Part shown: positions 1,837 through 12,072 of the stretch, piece after piece
Layout of the letters: every line of letters begins with the position of its first letter
Position numbering within the stretch: position 1 is the first letter of the stretch
Notes under the pieces: model-generated
Told to the model about the DNA's origin: nothing
Databases searched by the model: none
The model's input: the letters and a program-made list of their open reading frames with translations, nothing else
IMG/VR virus record: IMGVR_UViG_3300014846_000084
Reading direction: 5' to 3' (one strand)
Length of the DNA: 12,726 bases
Source of the DNA: a virus
Taxonomy: Duplodnaviria; Heunggongvirae; Uroviricota; Caudoviricetes
Position numbers and translations under genes: made by a program

Positions 1837-3039
1837 ATGAATACTGGATATTCTCCCGAACAAGGGCGGGGCTTCGTTCGTCCTGAAAAACAGAATCTGC
1901 AAAATTTTGCCGAAATTATTCCGGTTATTTCCGGCCTTACTGGCGGGAGTGAAACCAATATTGTTAACGCCAGAGCGTTGCAGATGTTTGATGATAAAAA
2001 GGGAGTAAATTTAACTTACACCCCTGACGGCAATCAGAATATGAGCATTATCTCTGAGTCAGGTTTCTACAAACTAATAAAAACAAAAAGCGCCCCGTTG
2101 CCGGAGCGCCTTTGTGAACAATTAACCTACTGCGCAAAAAATGAATCTGAGCAGTGGGATTATATCAACCATGTGGAGAAGCGCCACAATTGCCGAATAA
2201 CGGGCAAAACAAAGGCCACCCGCTACGGTGGCCCCTCGACACAAGCTACACGTTATCCCCAACGCATGAGCATTGCCAACAATGCCACATTTGCGGCTGG
2301 TGGGCAATGCAATCAGTCTGGTTCAGTTCGTTGCCATACCTGCAATGAGCGCTTTTCCCTGTACTCTTTAAGGAATTGCTCAAGGGCAAAAGCACATGGC
2401 GCGAATCTTTCTGATTCATGCTCTATCTTTCTGCGCCGTCTTTTCCGTGCCGGTGATAATGTTTTGGTCAATTCTTTATCGGTCATTGTGTTGTCCTGCA
2501 TAGCAATGCGCCGTAATACCTTACACCACGGCGCTGATGGTGATTACTCTGGTTCTTTGGTCTTGCGGCGCTGGAGTTCTTCACGTGCGACAGTGACGAG
2601 CTGCCCGATCTCCTCGGCGGCTTTGATTCCGAGTTTTTCCACCTGCGCCAGTGCATCGAGCGAAGAAACTAGGGGATTTTCTCCACTTCCTTCTGCCTGG
2701 CGCCGGGCGATCTCACCGCGTACAGCCGTAACTATAAAATTCGCTTTAGTTTCCCCTGGCTGTAGGGATGCCTCAATGCCACTCACTACTTCATGTGGAA
2801 ATCTGGCATTCAGTTGCTGTGACTTATTGTTAACAGAACTCCTGGACATGTTTGCACCTCCCATTAATAACGGGATGCAGTGTAATACAAAAGTGAATAC
2901 CAAAAAAGACTTGAAATGGTATTCACCTAAATGTAATGTGAATACCACAAGTGCTGATACATGCAATTCAGCAATTGAAACGACGAAGCCCCGCACTGTT
3001 GGAGCAGTAACGGGGCTTCTAACCAACAACGTAAACTAG
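1837..3039 (+). CDS. Hypothetical ORF with a Bro-N/KilA-N-like segment in the first ~110 aa. The 3' boundary is uncertain: the open frame runs 400 codons, but the distal two thirds look like non-coding antisense of the minus-strand regulator gene. Possible pseudogene or mis-extended ORF.
   Basis: N-terminal translation contains KGVNLTYTPDGNQNMSIISESGFYKLIKTKS, which resembles the conserved Bro-N core. From about residue 150 the composition turns S/C/R-rich and overlaps a well-supported gene on the opposite strand. Weak SD before the ATG at 1837. Confidence 0.3.
   Translation: MNTGYSPEQGRGFVRPEKQNLQNFAEIIPVISGLTGGSETNIVNARALQMFDDKKGVNLTYTPDGNQNMSIISESGFYKLIKTKSAPLPERLCEQLTYCAKNESEQWDYINHVEKRHNCRITGKTKATRYGGPSTQATRYPQRMSIANNATFAAGGQCNQSGSVRCHTCNERFSLYSLRNCSRAKAHGANLSDSCSIFLRRLFRAGDNVLVNSLSVIVLSCIAMRRNTLHHGADGDYSGSLVLRRWSSSRATVTSCPISSAALIPSFSTCASASSEETRGFSPLPSAWRRAISPRTAVTIKFALVSPGCRDASMPLTTSCGNLAFSCCDLLLTELLDMFAPPINNGMQCNTKVNTKKDLKWYSPKCNVNTTSADTCNSAIETTKPRTVGAVTGLLTNNVN
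2313..2486 (-). CDS. Possible small basic protein (57 aa, MTDKELTKTLSPARKRRRRK...), downstream of the RHH gene on the minus strand
   Basis: ORF in the track (2313..2501) trimmed to the second ATG, which has an AGGA about 8 nt upstream. Composition is protein-like but there is no recognisable family. Overlaps the open + frame of the preceding feature. Confidence 0.2.
   Translation of the reverse strand: MTDKELTKTLSPARKRRRRKIEHESERFAPCAFALEQFLKEYREKRSLQVWQRTEPD
2544..2849 (-). CDS. Ribbon-helix-helix (Arc/MetJ-like) DNA-binding regulator, about 101 aa; candidate island repressor
   Basis: Track ORF 2544..3029 trimmed to the internal ATG at 2849, which has a strong SD (GGGAGGTG) 5 nt upstream. 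N-terminal segment LNARFPHEVVSGIEASLQPGETKANFIVTAVRGEI fits an RHH beta-strand/helix pattern. Transcribed divergently from the downstream operon. Confidence 0.7.
   Translation of the reverse strand: MSRSSVNNKSQQLNARFPHEVVSGIEASLQPGETKANFIVTAVRGEIARRQAEGSGENPLVSSLDALAQVEKLGIKAAEEIGQLVTVAREELQRRKTKEPE
2893..2947. promoter_or_regulatory. Operator-like triple repeat GTGAATACCA (direct 2893-2902, inverted 2918-2927, direct 2938-2947) in the divergent intergenic region between the RHH gene and the 3048 operon
   Basis: Three exact copies of a 10-mer in alternating orientation, within about 55 bp, lying between two divergent start codons (2849 minus, 3048 plus). Confidence 0.5.
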
Positions 3040-3047
3040 GAGCCGTT

Positions 3048-3248
3048 ATGGTTGCCGTAAATCATATACCACACCTTGTACACACACAAACGGCCTTTGT
3101 GTGGCGTTTTCTGGCACTGAGTGCCGGAGAATCTCAAATCATCCACGTAACCGCCTGGACGGAACGCGAAGCGCGTAGCCGTTGCCCGTCAGGTTGTGTT
3201 GCTGTATTTGCCGCTCGTATTCGTCAGGGGAAAACCTATGCACAATAA
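3048..3248 (+). CDS. Hypothetical small protein (66 aa), first gene of a coupled operon leading to the primase
   Basis: AGGAG SD at 3038-3042, 5 nt before the ATG. Stop overlaps the start of the next ORF. Confidence 0.5.
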   Translation: MVAVNHIPHLVHTQTAFVWRFLALSAGESQIIHVTAWTEREARSRCPSGCVAVFAARIRQGKTYAQ

Positions 3249-3477
3249 AACCACACCGGACGCAGCAGCCGCCGCGCTCACTACGCTGATGCACGCGCTT
3301 ATTGATATTTCTGTTATTGCTGACAGGGCGCATAAGCACGCCACCAGTGAAACAGAATATGCCGGGGCTTTCGTTCCTCATTCGCTGGCGGTTATGCAAC
3401 TTAGTGCGGATATGGCGCTGAATGAGGCCAAAGCCATCCTGATTGCTGATTGTGAAAATGGGGGGGGTTATGCGTGA
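3238..3477 (+). CDS. Hypothetical small protein (79 aa, MHNKTTPDAAAAALTT...)
   Basis: Track ORF 3196..3477 trimmed to the ATG at 3238, which overlaps the upstream stop and has AGGGGA upstream. Alanine/helix-rich, protein-like composition. Confidence 0.5.
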   Translation: MHNKTTPDAAAAALTTLMHALIDISVIADRAHKHATSETEYAGAFVPHSLAVMQLSADMALNEAKAILIADCENGGGYA

Positions 3478-3934: not shown

Positions 3935-4234
3935 ATGAAACTTAAATATTCTGGCTTAACTGCCAGTGGCAACACTCACCCTAAATTTACGCGCGGTGAT
4001 ATTTACCGCGACCAGTACGGCGGCACGGTAATGATTAAGGGCGTGGAGGAACGTCGCGTAACTTACCGCCGTGAAGGCTACGAATATGATTGCGTGATGC
4101 CTGTTTATCAGTTCGACCGTGATTTTTCTCTTGTGCAGGCCGTACCGCGTAACGTGCCCACCAGCAGGGAGAAAGCACGCGCCAATATTCAGAAGATGAA
4201 AACCATGATTAACGGATTCAGGGGTAAAAAATGA
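3935..4234 (+). CDS. Hypothetical protein (99 aa), translationally coupled to the primase gene (ATGA overlap)
   Basis: Track ORF with GGAGA SD upstream. Its stop overlaps the primase ATG at 4231. Confidence 0.6.
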   Translation: MKLKYSGLTASGNTHPKFTRGDIYRDQYGGTVMIKGVEERRVTYRREGYEYDCVMPVYQFDRDFSLVQAVPRNVPTSREKARANIQKMKTMINGFRGKK

Positions 4235-5985
4235 AACTGGCACCGAACGTAAAACAGCAGTCACGCGGCATAAAACACAAAGAAACAGAAGTCATTATTT
4301 TTGCGGGTAGTGATGCCTGGTCACACGCAAAACAATGGCAGGAACATGACGCGCGTATGGCCGGAGATAATGAGCCTCCTGTGTGGCTTGGGGAGCAGCA
4401 GTTATCCGAACTGGATAAGCTGCAAATTGTGCCGGAAGGCAGAAAATGCGTACGAATATTCAGGGCCGGACATCTTGCGCCAGTAATGATAAAGGCGATT
4501 GGTCAGAAGCTGGCGGCGGCTGGCGTACAGGATGCAAATTTTTATCCTGAGGGTATGCACGGCCAGGAGGTGCAGAACTGGCGCGAATATCTGGCCCGTG
4601 AGCGACAGAATCTTTCTGATGGTCTGGTCATTGAGCTTCCGGTAAAGCAAAAGGCGCAACTTTCTCAGATGGCGGACAGTGAGCGCGCGCAGCTGCTTTC
4701 CGGGCGCTTTGATGGCGTTTGCGTGCATCCTGAAAGTGAAATCGTCCACGTCTGGCGCGGCGGGGGATGGTGTCCGGTCAGCACAATGGAACTGAGCCGC
4801 GAAATGGTGGCGATCTATTCAGAGCACAGGGCCACTTTCAGCAAGCGCGTAATCAATAACGCCGTGGAAGCGTTAAAAGTTATTGCCGAACCAATGGGCG
4901 AGCCGTCCGGTGATTTACTGCCGTTCGCCAATGGTGCGCTTGACCTGAAAACGGGGGAATTTTACCCGCACACGCCGGAGAACTGGATCACCACGCACAA
5001 CGGCATTGAGTACACGCCACCAGCACCAGGGGAGAACATCCGCGATAACGCGCCAAACTTTCATAAATGGCTTGAGCACGCAGCCGGAAAAGACCCGCGC
5101 AAGATGATGCGTATATGTGCCGCGCTGTACATGATTATGGCGAACCGGTACGACTGGCAGATGTTTATTGAGGCCACCGGAGATGGCGGGAGCGGTAAAA
5201 GTACATTCACGCACATAGCCAGCCTTCTGGCAGGGAAACAGAACACGGTAAGCGCTGAAATGACATCGCTTGATGATGCTGGTGGACGTGCGCAGGTTGT
5301 CGGGAGTCGTCTTATCGTCCTGGCTGACCAGCCGAAATATACAGGCGAAGGAACGGGCATCAAGAAAATCACGGGCGGTGACCCTGTGGAAATTAACCCG
5401 AAATACGAAAAGCGTTTCACGGCTGTAATCAGAGCGGTGGTGCTGGCGACCAACAATAACCCGATGATATTCACCGAACGGGCCGGAGGTGTGGCACGTC
5501 GTCGCGTGATTTTCCGTTTCGACAATATCGTCAGTGAGGCCGAAAAAGACAGGGAGCTACCGGAAAAGATTGCGGCTGAAATCCCTGTCATTATCCGCCG
5601 ATTGCTGGCGAACTTTACCGACCCTGAGAAGGCACGGGCTTTACTACTGGAACAGCGTGACGGTGATGAAGCTCTGGCAATAAAGCAACAGACGGATCCG
5701 GTTATTGAGTTTTGCCAGTTCCTGAATTTTCTGGAGGAAGCACGCGGCCTGATGATGGGCGGCGGTGGCGATTCAGTGAAGTACACGACCAGAAACAGCC
5801 TTTACCGCGTCTATCTGGCGTTTATGGCGTACGCAGGCAGGAGCAAACCGCTAAACGTAAATGACTTTGGCAAGGCTATGAAGCCAGCCGCGAAAGTTTA
5901 CGGACATGAATATATTACGCGGAAAGTTAAGGGAGTAACGCAGACTAACGCAATAACAACAGACGATTGCGACGCGTTTTTATAA
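4231..5985 (+). CDS. Phage/plasmid primase-helicase, P4 alpha-like (D5_N plus P-loop NTPase C-terminal region), 584 aa; probable replication initiator of the island
   Basis: Walker A reads EATGDGGSGKST and a Walker-B-like RLIVLADQ follows. Overall size and layout match P4-family primase C-terminal domain proteins. The iteron array starts directly after the stop. Confidence 0.88.
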   Translation: MKLAPNVKQQSRGIKHKETEVIIFAGSDAWSHAKQWQEHDARMAGDNEPPVWLGEQQLSELDKLQIVPEGRKCVRIFRAGHLAPVMIKAIGQKLAAAGVQDANFYPEGMHGQEVQNWREYLARERQNLSDGLVIELPVKQKAQLSQMADSERAQLLSGRFDGVCVHPESEIVHVWRGGGWCPVSTMELSREMVAIYSEHRATFSKRVINNAVEALKVIAEPMGEPSGDLLPFANGALDLKTGEFYPHTPENWITTHNGIEYTPPAPGENIRDNAPNFHKWLEHAAGKDPRKMMRICAALYMIMANRYDWQMFIEATGDGGSGKSTFTHIASLLAGKQNTVSAEMTSLDDAGGRAQVVGSRLIVLADQPKYTGEGTGIKKITGGDPVEINPKYEKRFTAVIRAVVLATNNNPMIFTERAGGVARRRVIFRFDNIVSEAEKDRELPEKIAAEIPVIIRRLLANFTDPEKARALLLEQRDGDEALAIKQQTDPVIEFCQFLNFLEEARGLMMGGGGDSVKYTTRNSLYRVYLAFMAYAGRSKPLNVNDFGKAMKPAAKVYGHEYITRKVKGVTQTNAITTDDCDAFL

Positions 5986-9480: not shown

Positions 9481-12072
9481 TCAGAACGTCCAGACCACAC
9501 CCGCCTGAGTATTCCACGGCGATTCTACCCCTGCGCCATTGCCATAGCTGACTGACAAATGACCGCTTAACGTCGGGGTAAACGATGACCTTATACCAGC
9601 CTGATAAACGCCACTGGTTCCAGCCACATCATTATTAAATTTGCCATCGTCATTAACTTTCACCTGGTTAGAATCGGCGTATTCCTGACGCACGGCCGCT
9701 TTCAGCCAGGGTTCCAGCGTCGTACCGTTTTGCAGGTCCATGTGATAGCTTACCGCCGTTCCCGCTTCAGCGCGTAATATCCGGGTATTTCCCACATCCG
9801 CGCGCATGCCGTTTGATAACGTGTAGTCCTGACCATCTGTGGTAAAGCCGGTAAAGGCCAGATAGGGTCTAACACTCCACAATCCGTCAACCCAACGGAA
9901 CCCGCTCTCAACATGAGCACCCGCGCCGTTACTATTGTAATCGCCAAACGCTGTTGCCCCATTACTCATCTTGCCATGGATGGTGTTGGCAAAACGGTCA
10001 ACTTTCACCACCCCATCAACATAGGCACCGTTCTGATGCTCCCAACCGGCATAAGCCCCCAGGGTATAGCTATCGATATTACCTTTGCCGCCGCGATCAA
10101 AACCAATATCAGAATGAGAGTAACCAAAGATCAAGCCGCGAATTGTACTGCTTTCTTCACGGGAGAAACGGCTATCGATACCGAGCGTCAGGCCCGTCAA
10201 TGTTTGCTCAAAACCAGCTCCCGCATCAGTGGTCACGTTGTTGCGGGTGTTAATTGCCGAACTCCACATCGCCGTATCGTAACTAACGCCTTTTACGCTA
10301 CCAAGACGCTCACGCACGGTGTCCAGTTCTGCATCAAATACCAGCGGTTGTGCGGCCGCCATATTCAGCACATCAGTGGTTGAAGGGGTAATTTGCGCGC
10401 GATTCTCTGCCAGACTCCAGCTATGGTTGCCATTATCCAGCAAGGTATATTCATACGTACCGATATCAACAACGCCTCCGGCATTGCCCAACGTAAATGC
10501 AGCATCACCGCCGCCCGTTGTTACCAGTGTAAGGCTATCTCCTGCTGCCGGGCTGGCACCGGTGTCCGTCACGAATATTTTGAAATCACCTGTTGCCTGA
10601 CCGGTGACGTTGAGCTGATCGCTCTGATGATTAGCCATATCGGTACGCATATAAAAATTGCCGTTTCCCGACAGGGTATTGGTGGTCAACGTAATGAAAT
10701 TTTCCGCACTTGCCGTCACTGATGAACGAGTCACTGGCTCATCCATCATAATCACATTTGCGTCAGACATCGCAAGGTTGGCTAAGTTGAGGAGGGTGTT
10801 TTGGTTCGTCGTAGTGATATCGGCAATGATGGTCCATACGCTATTTTCGAGCGAAACGTCCGCTTTGCTGGTATCCACGGCACCATTCGTTCTAAAAGAA
10901 GCGCCCTCAGAAACCACTACCTTACCCACCAACATTGCGGGTGCATAATTTATTTGCGGCTTCATGACCTCAAGAATGCCATCATTCCCTCTGACTGAAA
11001 CGTTAACCATTGTGCCAGCCCAGACGTTAGCGCGGCCATTGTTGATAACCATATTTTCAGAGATGGCTTTTGAGGAATACGTGATACTTCCATTCTGATA
11101 TGATCGACCGAGATCATATACCGCATTTGCCTGCACTTTCGTACCAGTATCCTTTCCCAGCGATTGCATAGTGGCATGCTTATCAAGGATAGTATCAATG
11201 GCCTGCGTGTCCTCCATAACAATGAGCCCGGAACCATCATCCAGTTCATAATTTTTTGACACACCATCTTTTATACTAAATTGGCCTTTACTGTTTGGAC
11301 CACTCACTTCCAGCGCATTCGTTGAGACAATTAATTTTCCGCCTGCTTTTTTATCAACGCCAGTTACAGTCCCGCCATCCATAACCTCCAGTAAGCCGCC
11401 ACTATCTACAGTGGTATTATAAGCGAAGTCATTTTCTTCAACTCGCAAACTTCCGCCGTTTTCCAACAACATATTATTAGCAATACCATTCTTGATATCG
11501 AACTGACCGAGACGGTTTGTTCCGAATACCTCCATGGCCCGCGTGGTTGTTTTAATAGCACCGCCTGCTTTCTGATCTACCGCAAATGCAAATCCCCCCT
11601 CTTTAACCTCCAGTAGTCCTCCCTTTTCGATAGCGACAAAGACGGCCCCCCCATCTTTTTCAACGATTAAGCGCCCGCCTTTAATCGTGGTATCATTCGC
11701 TGCGCCATAAACCTGTAGCACACCATTATTGAGCGTAGTCTGGTTTGCCGCGCCACCCATTTGAACAATTTGATAACCGTCATTTAATACTGAGTATTCT
11801 GCGGCGCCATTCATTTCAATGTACTGATACCCTCCGTTAATTTCAGTATTATTACTTACACCAAATTCTTTTATATGCTGTTCTCCGCCAGGATTGATTT
11901 TCGTATTATTGGCGGTCCCATAAACCAGCTGGATATCTTTTTCCAGGACAACACCATCAACTGTCTCACCATACTCAACAGTTGATGCCAATGCTATGGG
12001 TGAATATAACGCTGTAGCCACCAGAACAGATATTGCGGAACGACAAAGAGAAACAGAACCAGATTGATGCAT
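9481..12072 (-). CDS. AIDA-I-type (type Va) autotransporter adhesin, 863 aa, with signal peptide, repeat-rich passenger and C-terminal beta-barrel translocator
   Basis: N-terminal signal-peptide-like segment (LCRSAISVLVATALYSPIALAST). Passenger region has recurring glycine-rich repeats (e.g. NTKINPGGEQ, NTEINGGYQY, IVEKDGGAVF, LEVKEGGFAF). C-terminal about 280 aa has alternating aromatic/hydrophobic beta-strand pattern and ends ...AGVVWTF, typical of autotransporter beta-domains. Confidence 0.88.
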   Translation of the reverse strand: MHQSGSVSLCRSAISVLVATALYSPIALASTVEYGETVDGVVLEKDIQLVYGTANNTKINPGGEQHIKEFGVSNNTEINGGYQYIEMNGAAEYSVLNDGYQIVQMGGAANQTTLNNGVLQVYGAANDTTIKGGRLIVEKDGGAVFVAIEKGGLLEVKEGGFAFAVDQKAGGAIKTTTRAMEVFGTNRLGQFDIKNGIANNMLLENGGSLRVEENDFAYNTTVDSGGLLEVMDGGTVTGVDKKAGGKLIVSTNALEVSGPNSKGQFSIKDGVSKNYELDDGSGLIVMEDTQAIDTILDKHATMQSLGKDTGTKVQANAVYDLGRSYQNGSITYSSKAISENMVINNGRANVWAGTMVNVSVRGNDGILEVMKPQINYAPAMLVGKVVVSEGASFRTNGAVDTSKADVSLENSVWTIIADITTTNQNTLLNLANLAMSDANVIMMDEPVTRSSVTASAENFITLTTNTLSGNGNFYMRTDMANHQSDQLNVTGQATGDFKIFVTDTGASPAAGDSLTLVTTGGGDAAFTLGNAGGVVDIGTYEYTLLDNGNHSWSLAENRAQITPSTTDVLNMAAAQPLVFDAELDTVRERLGSVKGVSYDTAMWSSAINTRNNVTTDAGAGFEQTLTGLTLGIDSRFSREESSTIRGLIFGYSHSDIGFDRGGKGNIDSYTLGAYAGWEHQNGAYVDGVVKVDRFANTIHGKMSNGATAFGDYNSNGAGAHVESGFRWVDGLWSVRPYLAFTGFTTDGQDYTLSNGMRADVGNTRILRAEAGTAVSYHMDLQNGTTLEPWLKAAVRQEYADSNQVKVNDDGKFNNDVAGTSGVYQAGIRSSFTPTLSGHLSVSYGNGAGVESPWNTQAGVVWTF

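What the first reader, a model, noticed from the sequence alone, without database searches (positions are those of the whole stretch)
2850..3047. Divergent regulatory switch: three GTGAATACCA operators between the RHH regulator and the replication operon, plus a structured leader
Three exact 10-mers in direct-inverted-direct arrangement lie between divergent start codons, the classic layout of a repressor-controlled bidirectional promoter as in cI-cro or stl-str switches. A further 8-bp inverted repeat, AAGCCCCG (2987-2994) and CGGGGCTT (3012-3019), around a 17-nt loop lies in the leader of the rightward operon. This is likely the island's induction control point.
Basis: partly seen in the sequence, partly recalled or inferred. 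Interest (0 to 1): 0.55.

Follow-up and report, generated by a model that had tools for sequence, protein, structure and literature searches.

The report
Satellite immunity switch with antisense RNA
The region is the control switch of a phage-satellite island: a small repressor's binding sites sit over two back-to-back promoters, and the "leader hairpin" most likely ends a short antisense RNA that would block the first replication-operon gene. This matters because Gram-negative satellites of this type were thought to lack a repressor.

Summary
GTGAATACCA occurs exactly three times, at the stated coordinates, and a hairpin follows (really 2985-2993/3011-3019, one base off).

The window is a Gram-negative PICI closely related to EcCICFT073. 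It carries int, alpA, a leftward YlcI/YnfO (Arc-like RHH) gene, then a rightward Icd-like gene and the primase operon.

Comparison of 27 related loci supports the operator reading:
- The geometry is constant: a -35, a 10-bp arm, an 11-bp spacer holding the -10, then an inverted arm.
- The arm sequence changes in step with the RHH beta-strand residues.
- Near-identical islands differ only in a swapped cassette made of the RHH N-terminus, the operators and the leader.

The "structured leader" reading is not supported. The hairpin is built for the opposite strand: 34 G·U pairs on the minus strand against 0 on the plus strand, and a T-rich tail only on the minus strand. Together with a conserved -10-like element inside icd, this predicts an ~80-nt cis-antisense RNA over the icd start codon and ribosome-binding site. 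The layout matches P22 mnt/arc-sar-ant and works like P1 c4-icd. Rfam membership of sar or C4 is not met.

One thing remains unexplained. A stop-free plus-strand frame runs through the repressor gene and the switch up to, or into, icd in most loci.

The parts
2544..2849 (-). 101-aa YlcI/YnfO-family repressor gene. The N-terminal half is Arc/Mnt-like ribbon-helix-helix; the C-terminal half carries a helix-hairpin-helix-like motif.
   Evidence: NCBIfam NF041551, E 1e-16. hhalign to P22 Arc gives E 0.0035, in register with the beta-strand and helix A. Arc-operator structures are among the top Foldseek hits, but the hits are not significant. The C-terminal part matches Hef/XPF HhH at E 0.007. The beta-strand residues vary by class.
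2855..2861 (-). Shine-Dalgarno sequence (GGAGGTG) of the repressor gene.
   Evidence: Read from the sequence. A CCTCC/CTCC element sits at the same distance from the start codon in nearly all related loci.
2871..2880 (.). Degenerate distal half-site of the left operator O_L (CGGGATGCAG). It lies over the predicted start of the leftward transcript.
   Evidence: Its position corresponds to the good arm TGGTATTCAG in Yersinia L022 and to good arms in most other classes. It shares 7 of 10 bases with the L022 arm.
2879..2884 (-). Predicted -10 (TACACT) of the leftward promoter P_L, inside the O_L spacer. The -35 is poor (T-run 2902-2907).
   Evidence: PWM scan. The aligned element is TATACT or TATAAT in other loci. 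This is prediction only.
2893..2902 (+). Operator half-site R1 (GTGAATACCA), the proximal arm of O_L.
2911..2916 (+). -35 (TTGAAA) of the rightward promoter P_R.
   Evidence: Top plus-strand PWM hit. TTGAC(A/G) occupies the same place in almost all loci.
2917..2926 (-). Operator half-site R2 (TGGTATTCAC on the plus strand), the left arm of O_R. It fills the promoter spacer directly after the -35.
2934..2939 (+). -10 (TAATGT) of P_R, 17 bp from the -35. The predicted transcription start is near 2946.
   Evidence: PWM scan. A TAnnnT element sits at the same offset across loci. This is prediction only.
2938..2947 (+). Operator half-site R3 (GTGAATACCA), the right arm of O_R. It covers the end of the -10 and the predicted start of the P_R transcript.
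2948..2977 (+). Small 5'-proximal inverted repeat of the P_R transcript (CAAGTGCTGA / TCAGCAATTG).
   Evidence: Analogous CCTTGAG..CTCAAGG hairpins follow O_R in other loci.
2975..2984 (-). T-rich tail (GTCGTTTCAA on the minus strand) that follows the hairpin on the antisense strand.
   Evidence: The mean is 5.1 T in the 10 nt after the stem on the minus strand, against 1.3 on the plus strand, across 21 loci.
2985..3019 (-). 3' stem-loop, a probable intrinsic terminator, of a predicted cis-antisense RNA.
   Evidence: Of 291 pair cells, 245 are Watson-Crick, 34 are G·U on the minus strand only and 0 are G·U on the plus strand only. Nine of 14 pairs show compensatory changes, 95.9% of cells are paired, and 0 of 500 shuffles reach the observed score. 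The minus-strand fold is more stable in 20 of 21 distinct loci.
3020..3054 (+). Hairpin of the icd leader that presents the Shine-Dalgarno sequence (TAGGAG 3037-3042) in its loop, with the ATG at 3048-3050 in the 3' arm. Its complement in the antisense RNA presents the anti-SD in a loop.
   Evidence: All 5 pairs of the inner stem show compensatory changes (CGTTA/TAACG, CATTA/TAATG, GTAA/TTAC). P1 icd has the same GTTA..SD..TAAC arrangement.
3061..3089 (-). Predicted promoter of the antisense RNA: -35 TTGTGT (reverse complement of 3084-3089), 17 bp, -10 TATGAT (reverse complement of 3061-3066). The predicted start is near 3054.
   Evidence: Top minus-strand PWM hit. A TAnnnT element is read at the same codons (3-6 of icd) in all the loci, although the encoded residues differ (scan plus reading of the sequences). 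This is prediction only.
3048..3248 (+). Icd-like gene, the first gene of the rightward replication operon and the target of the antisense RNA.
   Evidence: NCBIfam NF033153, E 6e-18. It shares the F(I/V)WRF..TE.EARS motif with P1 Icd.
3083..3112 (+). Terminator-like hairpin plus T-run inside the icd ORF (codons 12-22). It is a candidate translation-sensitive attenuator.
   Evidence: The sequence is identical in the E. coli relatives L001 and L014-L019. The function is inferred.
1837..3039 (+). 400-codon stop-free frame with a Bro-N-like N-terminus. It runs antisense through the repressor gene and through the whole switch, and ends 8 nt before the icd ATG.
   Evidence: See Noticed in passing.

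Best explanation
The 198-bp interval is the control region of a P22-immI-like immunity cassette carried by a Gram-negative phage-inducible chromosomal island of the EcCICFT073 family.

1. Repressor and operators. The leftward gene encodes an Arc/Mnt-like RHH repressor. Its dimers would bind 10-bp half-sites arranged as two operators.
- O_R is 2917-2926 plus 2938-2947, 21 bp centre to centre. It brackets the -10 of the rightward promoter P_R (-35 at 2911-2916, -10 at 2934-2939). Occupancy should shut off the icd-like/primase operon.
- O_L is 2893-2902 plus the degenerate 2871-2880. It brackets the -10 of the repressor's own promoter in mirror image, which would give autoregulation.

2. Antisense RNA. 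The hairpin at 2985-3019 acts on the minus strand, as the 3' stem-loop or terminator of an ~80-nt cis-antisense RNA. That RNA would start just inside icd (near 3054) and be complementary to the icd start codon and Shine-Dalgarno sequence. Both partners present this segment in hairpin loops.

3. Consequence of pairing. Pairing should block icd translation. By uncoupling translation from transcription it should also stop the operon, either at the intragenic terminator-like hairpin (3083-3112) or through Rho, as c4 RNA does for icd-ant in P1.

What is shown: the repeats, their geometry, their covariation with the protein, the strand asymmetry and covariation of the hairpin, and the modular exchange of the cassette.

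What is inferred: binding, the promoter positions, the existence and ends of the RNA, and the polarity step.
For: Repeats and geometry.

Covariation of arms with the protein:
- Loci sharing a beta-strand have arms 0.87-0.88 identical, while the spacer between the arms is only 0.58 identical.
- Loci with different beta-strands have arms 0.46-0.54 identical, while the neighbouring A-tract plus -35 stays 0.70 identical.
- The same arms recur across genera when the beta-strand is the same. E. coli, Xenorhabdus/Photorhabdus and Citrobacter all have TGTGTTTCA with QLTTVRVP.

Cassette exchange: the window and L014 are 100% identical over 2295-2564 and about 99% identical (149 of 150 bases) over 3041-3190, but only 40-60% identical in between. 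AlpA is 59/62 identical and Icd 64/66 identical.

RHH assignment.

Hairpin: (34 against 0 wobble cells; 9 of 14 pairs compensatory; T-rich tail only on the minus strand).

Antisense RNA: the candidate folds at -33 kcal/mol, z -5.3, with the anti-SD in a loop. A -10-like TAnnnT is conserved at a fixed place inside icd.

Same layout in P22 arc-sar-ant: a hairpin GAAGCCC..GGGGCTTC, about 30 nt, SD, ATG, then the Psar -10 at codons 3-4. P1 icd has the same RBS hairpin.

The covariance model finds the element in sequences it was not trained on: EcCICFT073 (71.8 bits) and the packaged satellite vB_KppS-Ant (72.9 bits).
Against: - There are no transcript or binding data.
- The promoter scores (10.2 and 9.3) are within the range of shuffled sequence, whose 95th percentile is 11.0. 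The consensus scanner calls none of the three promoters.
- The T-run starts 3-4 nt after the stem, so the simple terminator scanner does not call the hairpin on either strand, here or in L022 and L004.
- The -10 of the antisense promoter lies in coding sequence, so protein constraint is a confounder.
- Operators and the RHH N-terminus are physically adjacent, so part of the covariation could reflect linkage.
- RHH fold evidence is weak: Foldseek E > 4, and the Pfam hit is below its cut-off.
- In EcCICFT073, AlpA alone induces the island (PMC6092414). A repressor is therefore not the only gate, or it is bypassed.
Confidence: 0.6

Rival explanations
1. The hairpin is a structure of the rightward mRNA leader (a stabiliser, processing site, attenuator or nut/boxB-like site) and no antisense RNA exists.
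For: The sense leader 2946-3060 also folds well, at -37.8 kcal/mol with z -3.1. In the window itself the stem is perfect on both strands. The conserved tail CTAACCA(A/C) follows the stem on the plus strand.
Against: Across loci the plus-strand version carries A·C mismatches exactly where the minus strand has G·U: 34 cells against 0. Minus-strand folds are 3-13 kcal/mol more stable in 20 of 21 distinct loci. There is no T-run on the plus strand. No Rfam family matches, including C4.
Confidence: 0.15
2. The 10-mers are bound by some other factor, such as AlpA, the Icd-like protein (placed in PHROG families labelled 'transcriptional repressor'), or a helper-phage repressor or Cro, rather than by the adjacent RHH protein.
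For: PHROG families 1743 and 6196, which match the Icd-like protein, carry the label 'transcriptional repressor'. AlpA is the known regulator of these islands (PMC6092414).
Against: AlpA (59/62) and Icd (64/66) are nearly identical in the window and in L014, yet the operator sequences are unrelated: TGGTATTCAC against TGTGTTTCAT. Only the RHH N-terminal half changes together with them. The arm classes track the beta-strand classes across genera.
Confidence: 0.08
3. The interval is not intergenic. It is part of a translated long plus-strand ORF (Bro-N ... Icd-like) that overlaps the repressor gene in antisense, and the repeats and hairpin are secondary to that coding function.
For: In 16 of 23 loci the whole interval is stop-free in the icd frame, with a per-locus chance of 0.004-0.026. 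The lengths of the interval in those loci all equal 1 mod 3. Gene callers or annotators call such ORFs in L022, L025 and vB_KppS-Ant. EcCICFT073 has a 428-codon version that runs in frame into icd.
Against: The translation is rich in S, C, R and T and poorly conserved. In the window the frame stops at 3037-3039 and is out of frame with icd. In L003 and L004 it is closed. The operator covariation, the conserved SD and start of the RHH gene, and the minus-strand hairpin all still need the regulatory reading. The two readings are not mutually exclusive.
Confidence: 0.12
4. The minus-strand hairpin is not the end of a separate small RNA. It is a leader or attenuator element of a longer repressor mRNA that starts inside icd and reads through the operators into the RHH gene.
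For: It lies on the same strand as the RHH gene. The predicted P_L has a very poor -35. The T-tract is non-canonical, so termination could be partial.
Against: A conserved -10-like element sits in the O_L spacer in nearly all loci. P22 sar has the same hairpin and tail, and from established knowledge it is a discrete 68-69-nt RNA (layout read).
Confidence: 0.05

Closest known systems
Phage P22 immI region (mnt <- Pmnt/Pant -> arc - sar - ant)
   Same: An RHH repressor is transcribed divergently from the operon it controls, and its operators overlap back-to-back promoters. A short cis-antisense RNA starts at the 5' end of the downstream gene, covers that gene's ribosome-binding site, and ends in a hairpin GAAGCCC...GGGGCUUC followed by a weak U-tail. 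The hairpin-SD-ATG-(-10) spacing is nearly the same. The RHH beta-strand QLNARFPHEVV resembles Arc QFNLRWPREVL.
   Different: There is one RHH gene here rather than two, and it carries an HhH-like C-terminal part instead of Mnt's coiled coil. The arms are 21 bp apart and bracket the -10. The target is an Icd-like gene heading a replication operon, not the antirepressor Ant. The Rfam sar model scores only 16.8/14.7 bits against a cut-off of 43. My model hits the P22 hairpin at only 15.8 bits, E 0.14. Homology is therefore unproven.
Phage P1/P7 immI (c4 RNA - icd - ant)
   Same: The first gene is an Icd homologue whose SD sits in a GTTA..TAAC hairpin. In both, an antisense RNA is aimed at the icd RBS. 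In P1, loss of icd translation is known to stop transcription of the downstream genes.
   Different: P1 c4 is encoded in cis upstream on the same strand, is processed from the leader, and pairs through two short loops. Here no C4 match exists at E <= 10, the leader contains no complement of its own SD region, and the regulator is a true opposite-strand antisense RNA. No ant gene follows.
Immunity RNAs of the 'Bro zone' of Gram-negative PICIs and P4 (CI/C4/isrK; Mageeney et al. 2023, PMC10111431)
   Same: The genomic zone is the same, between alpA and the replication genes. The idea is also the same: an RNA acts as immunity factor while lying inside or next to a Bro-N network ORF.
   Different: Those elements are detected by the Rfam C4 and isrK models, and neither matches here. 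This cassette adds a protein repressor with its own operators.
SaPI Stl-Str and lambda cI-cro divergent switches
   Same: A divergent repressor gene, with operators between two promoters that control a replication or lytic operon.
   Different: Those repressors are helix-turn-helix proteins, and a second divergent regulator (Str or Cro) is present. Here the rightward first gene is Icd-like and not a DNA-binding regulator. No antirepressor interaction is known. An antisense RNA layer is present.

Membership tests
Gram-negative PICI (EcCICFT073 type) | int and alpA co-oriented at the left end, followed by a primase/replication module and packaging-interference genes | tested here: met
   Pfam, NCBIfam and PHROG hits for integrase, AlpA, D5_N primase, terS-like and capsid-like genes. 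AlpA is identical to that of EcCICFT073 and the gene order is the same.
Ribbon-helix-helix (Arc/MetJ/CopG) repressors | N-terminal beta-strand, helix A, turn, helix B fold | tested here: inconclusive
   hhalign to Arc gives E 0.0035 over 23 columns in the right register and to Mnt E 0.051. The AlphaFold model (pLDDT 77) has helices at 19-28 and 35-55. Foldseek lists Arc-operator chains (rmsd 1.9 A over 39 columns), but at E > 4. The only Pfam RHH-type hit is below its cut-off.
Ribbon-helix-helix (Arc/MetJ/CopG) repressors | Repeated short subsites recognised by the beta-strand residues | tested here: met
   Three to four subsites per locus change in concert with the beta-strand class. This is comparative evidence only; binding was not tested.
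sar RNA (Rfam RF00262) | Score at or above the family gathering threshold (43 bits) | tested here: not met
   16.8 bits on the plus strand and 14.7 bits on the minus strand, covering the hairpin part only.
sar RNA (Rfam RF00262) | Opposite-strand RNA covering the RBS of the gene downstream of an RHH-controlled promoter, ending in a stem-loop plus U-tail | tested here: met
   Layout compared base by base with P22. Strand asymmetry and tail. The existence of the RNA is not testable with these tools.
C4 antisense RNA (Rfam RF01695) / P1-type immI | C4-like RNA upstream of icd on the same strand | tested here: not met
   No hit at the gathering threshold in the whole window, and none at E <= 10 in 2700-3400.
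C4 antisense RNA (Rfam RF01695) / P1-type immI | Icd homologue as the first gene | tested here: met
   NF033153, E 6e-18. Shared motif with P1 Icd.
Canonical intrinsic terminator | GC-rich stem immediately followed by a U-run | tested here: not met
   The scanner calls nothing at the hairpin on either strand in the window, L022 or L004. The T-run begins 3-4 nt after the stem, as it does in P22 sar.
Sigma-70 promoters P_R, P_L, P_antisense | -35 and -10 hexamers with 16-18 bp spacing, and a mapped transcription start | tested here: inconclusive
   PWM top hits lie at conserved positions, but the scores are within the shuffle range and the consensus scanner finds none in the window. It does call the homologous P_R in L004. 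Transcription starts are not testable here.

The most novel reading that the evidence does not exclude
The repressor/antisense cassette lies on the opposite strand inside a translated read-through path more than 1 kb long, running from the AlpA-controlled promoter to the replication genes.

On this reading the plus-strand frame is kept free of stop codons, with indels in multiples of three, across the repressor gene, its operators and promoters, and the icd leader. This would keep AlpA-driven transcripts covered by ribosomes and therefore resistant to Rho. Such transcripts could cross the repressed switch, silence the repressor gene by convergent transcription, and deliver icd and primase expression.

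That would explain how an activator alone can induce Gram-negative PICIs without any anti-repressor. It would also be an unusual case of selection for 'openness' of a frame rather than for its protein product.
Probability: 0.25. Interest if true: 0.8.

Novelty: new variant of a known kind. Interest (0 to 1): 0.62.

Why it matters
[quoted passage not shown] The cf-PICI paper does not mention a repressor at all.

This analysis indicates that a large group of these satellites carries an exchangeable, heteroimmune cassette made of an RHH repressor, its operators and a predicted antisense RNA in front of the replication operon.
- The prototype EcCICFT073 carries it.
- So does a packaged satellite.
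- So do relatives in Yersinia, Klebsiella, Enterobacter, Erwinia, Xenorhabdus and Photorhabdus.
- Parts of the 801-bp query that spans the switch (2500-3300) match 1364 of 5426 complete E. coli genomes.

This gives concrete, testable parts for three questions: how these islands stay silent, why closely related islands can coexist or exclude each other, and how AlpA overrides silencing.

Tried and rejected
- Rfam over the whole window at gathering thresholds gave nothing. The permissive scan of 2700-3400 gave only weak hits: RsaJ and mir-499 are artefacts of the hairpin and inverted repeats, and sar matches only at the hairpin.
- A c4/CI-like processed leader RNA was rejected. There is no C4 hit, and the leader contains no complement of its own SD region.
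- A tRNA-like or RNase P substrate (a stem followed by ..CCA), and an rrn-type boxB-boxA antitermination site (CUCUAACCAACAA against GCUCUUUAACAA), were both considered from the plus-strand sequence. Both were dropped once the hairpin proved to be built for the minus strand. Neither was tested further.
- Pairing between the conserved CTAACC tail and the 5' arm of the SD hairpin was rejected: the two do not covary across loci.
- Homology to P22 sar through my own covariance model gave only the hairpin at 15.8 bits, E 0.14. It is left as a resemblance.
- A DNA search of 2850-3110 against 50,697 phage records found no match. tblastn with the Icd-like protein found one record, the satellite vB_KppS-Ant.
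- A profile of the RHH family against PDB sequences found no RHH hit, only HhH proteins for the C-terminal part. Foldseek against the PDB was not significant.
- The consensus promoter and terminator scanner does not support any of the three promoters or the antisense terminator in the window.
- Papers on YlcI/YnfO, Icd-like proteins and PICI regulation describe neither this cassette nor the RNA.
Full report
**Context**

The window is a Gram-negative phage-inducible chromosomal island (PICI). Its genes are:
- integrase, 1-1230;
- AlpA, 1596-1784;
- a leftward pair of small genes, 2313-2501 and 2544-2849;
- a rightward operon: Icd-like gene (3048-3248), four small ORFs, DUF4222, and a D5_N primase/helicase (4231-5985);
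- terS-like and capsid-like genes;
- an Ag43-type autotransporter as cargo.

AlpA, the Bro-N-like start of the next ORF and the gene order are those of EcCICFT073, the prototype of these satellites. RefSeq annotates the two genes flanking the finding as "YlcI/YnfO family protein" and "host cell division inhibitor Icd-like protein".

**The observation**

GTGAATACCA is exact at 2893-2902 (+), 2917-2926 (-) and 2938-2947 (+), and nowhere else in the window. The hairpin exists.

**Operators**

I collected the homologous interval from 26 other loci. They come from E. coli, Yersinia, Enterobacter, Klebsiella, Citrobacter, Erwinia, Pantoea, Serratia-like metagenome DNA, Raoultella, Xenorhabdus and Photorhabdus.

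The layout is the same everywhere:
- the repressor start codon and its Shine-Dalgarno sequence;
- an upstream operator whose arms flank a TATACT-like element on the minus strand;
- an A-tract;
- TTGAC(A/G);
- immediately after it, a 10-bp arm;
- an 11-bp spacer that ends in a TAnnnT element 17 bp from the -35;
- an inverted 10-bp arm.

What changes is the arm sequence, and it changes together with residues 11-17 of the protein, the predicted DNA-reading beta-strand:

| Beta-strand | Arm sequence |
|---|---|
| QQLNARFP | TGGTATTCA |
| QLTTVRVP | TGTGTTTCA |
| (K/R)QISIRIP | TGTGATTCA |
| QSLTARIP | TGTAAG.. |
| Q.KN.R.P | GTGTG(T/C)AT |

Pairs of loci with the same beta-strand have arms 0.87-0.88 identical although the spacer between the arms is only 0.58 identical. 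Pairs with different strands have arms 0.46-0.54 identical while the adjacent A-tract and -35 remain 0.70 identical.

The window and E. coli locus L014 give the sharpest comparison. They are 100% identical over 2295-2564 and about 99% identical (149 of 150 bases) over 3041-3190, but only 40-60% identical from about 2700 to 3047. AlpA (59/62) and Icd (64/66) are essentially the same in both, yet the operators are unrelated. The specificity factor is therefore encoded in the swapped cassette, and the only protein segment inside it is the N-terminal half of the leftward gene.

That protein aligns with P22 Arc in the strand and helix-A register (E 0.0035). Its model shows the two RHH helices. Fold and Pfam searches are not significant, so the RHH assignment is probable rather than proven. 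The C-terminal half carries a helix-hairpin-helix-like motif.

In the window the fourth subsite (2871-2880) is degenerate. The underlying design is two operators, each bracketing a -10.

**The hairpin**

In many relatives the plus-strand version of the stem has A·C mismatches (GAAGCCC/GGGCCTC). On the minus strand these are G·U pairs.
- Over 21 distinct sequences and 14 pairs there are 245 Watson-Crick cells, 34 cells that pair only on the minus strand, and none that pair only on the plus strand.
- Nine of the 14 pairs show compensatory changes, and no shuffle reaches the observed covariation.
- Minus-strand folds are more stable in 20 of 21 distinct loci.
- The ten bases after the stem hold on average 5.1 T on the minus strand and 1.3 on the plus strand.

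The element therefore functions in a leftward RNA, not in the rightward leader.

A -10-like TAnnnT element (TATGAT, TATGCT, TATCAT, TAGACT, TACGAT or TACTAT) lies at codons 3-6 of icd in every locus, although the encoded residues differ (scan plus reading of the sequences). In the window it is TATGAT, the reverse complement of 3061-3066, with TTGTGT 17 bp upstream. This is the best minus-strand promoter score in the region.

The predicted ~80-nt RNA (about 3054 to about 2975) folds into two parts (z -5.3). The first is a 5' hairpin whose loop carries the anti-Shine-Dalgarno sequence. The second is the 3' stem-loop. The sense leader presents the Shine-Dalgarno sequence in the complementary loop. 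That hairpin also covaries, and P1 icd has one as well.

**Comparison with known systems**

The P22 arc-ant interval has the same parts in the same order and spacing. After arc comes the hairpin GAAGCCCCAACTGCGGTAACAGTCAGGGCTTC, which is the sar terminator on the other strand. About 30 nt further on come the SD and ATG of ant, and the Psar -10 (TATACT) lies at ant codons 3-4.

The Rfam sar model touches the window hairpin at only 16.8/14.7 bits. My model touches the P22 hairpin at 15.8 bits. I therefore claim that the element works like sar, not that it is a member of the sar family.

P1 supplies the other half of the analogy, an Icd gene whose translation is the target of an antisense RNA. 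P1's c4 RNA itself is absent here.

Mageeney et al. (PMC10111431) noted C4/isrK-type immunity RNAs in the same zone of some PICIs. This cassette is a different solution in the same place.

My covariance model finds the element in two sequences it was not trained on: EcCICFT073 (71.8 bits) and the packaged satellite vB_KppS-Ant (72.9 bits).

**Weak points**

- There is no experimental evidence for binding, for the promoters or for the RNA.
- Promoter scores are within the shuffle range.
- The simple scanners do not call the promoters in the window, nor the antisense terminator in the window or the two relatives tested, because its T-run starts 3-4 nt after the stem, as in sar.
- Linkage contributes to the operator-protein covariation.
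- AlpA alone induces EcCICFT073 (PMC6092414), and that element's repressor is a 59-aa form lacking the C-terminal half.

**Unexplained**

On the plus strand a stop-free frame of 370-700 codons runs antisense through the repressor gene, with the wobble positions of the two frames coinciding, and then through the whole switch.
- In 16 of 23 loci it continues in frame into icd.
- In five loci, including the window (1837-3039), it ends within about 20 nt of the icd ATG.
- Only two loci are closed.
- The per-locus chance that the interval is open in a given frame is 0.004-0.026.
- The interval lengths in the in-frame loci all equal 1 mod 3.
- The translation looks non-protein-like.

A reporter fused to "ORF3" of EcCICFT073 was AlpA-dependent (PMC6092414). 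I could not verify that ORF3 is this frame. My working idea is that read-through from the AlpA promoter must stay translated in order to cross the cassette. I rate this at about 0.25.

**Verdict**

The hairpin part is re-assigned to an antisense RNA. The system is a new variant of known immunity designs (P22 immI, P1 immI) in satellites where no repressor had been described.

Noticed in passing
window 1837-3039 (+); also L032 8767-10053, L022, L025, L028 2200-3174: A long stop-free plus-strand frame with a Bro-N-like N-terminus runs antisense through the repressor gene and through the operators, promoters and leader. In 16 of 23 loci it continues in frame into icd, and the intergenic lengths of those loci all equal 1 mod 3. 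The translation is junk-like. The cause is unexplained; the ideas considered are translated read-through and an overlapping gene.
   Followed up: partly
window 3083-3112 (+): A terminator-like hairpin (CACACAAACGG..TTTGTGTG followed by GCGTTTTCTG) lies inside the icd ORF at codons 12-22. The sequence is identical in E. coli relatives L001 and L014-L019. By eye, P1 icd has a hairpin plus T-rich run at the equivalent codons. It is a candidate translation-sensitive attenuator.
   Followed up: partly
window 2086-2113 (-): A strong minus-strand intrinsic terminator (12-bp stem followed by TGTTTTTATT) lies downstream of the repressor gene and of the 62-aa ORF at 2313-2501. It probably ends the leftward operon, and it sits inside the long plus-strand frame.
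   Followed up: no
window 2544-2700 (-), residues 55-95 of the repressor; L032 9474-9653: The C-terminal half of the repressor has a helix-hairpin-helix-like motif (LDALAQVEKLGIKAAEEIGQLV) that matches Hef/XPF HhH domains at E 0.007. The EcCICFT073 homologue is a 59-aa form lacking this half, with different operators (GTGGGCCACAC, twice, as direct repeats).
   Followed up: partly
window 2295-2564 and 3041-3190 compared with L014: The flanks are 100% and about 99% identical around a diverged cassette (about 2565-3047). This is the signature of modular exchange of an immunity region between otherwise near-identical islands.
   Followed up: yes
window 2313-2501 (-): A 62-aa ORF (phrog_21027, function unknown, very basic centre RKRRRRK) lies downstream of the repressor on the same strand. 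It is 100% conserved with L014 and is annotated as hypothetical in RefSeq relatives.
   Followed up: no
L004, L003, L011, L027, L018 (Q.KN.R.P class) and L023: The subsite orientation differs between classes. In some loci the upstream pair are direct repeats, or the four subsites form one large palindrome centred on the -35. The operator arrangement is therefore plastic, as in omega- or ParG-type RHH systems.
   Followed up: no
L028 (Escherichia phage vB_KppS-Ant, LR881103.1) 2200-3174: A 16.5-kb record deposited as an induced prophage is a satellite of this family. Its annotation merges the switch and icd into one 324-aa CDS and omits the repressor gene.
   Followed up: partly
window 9481-12072 (-): An 863-aa Ag43/AIDA-type autotransporter adhesin is carried as cargo at the right end of the island.
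   Followed up: no
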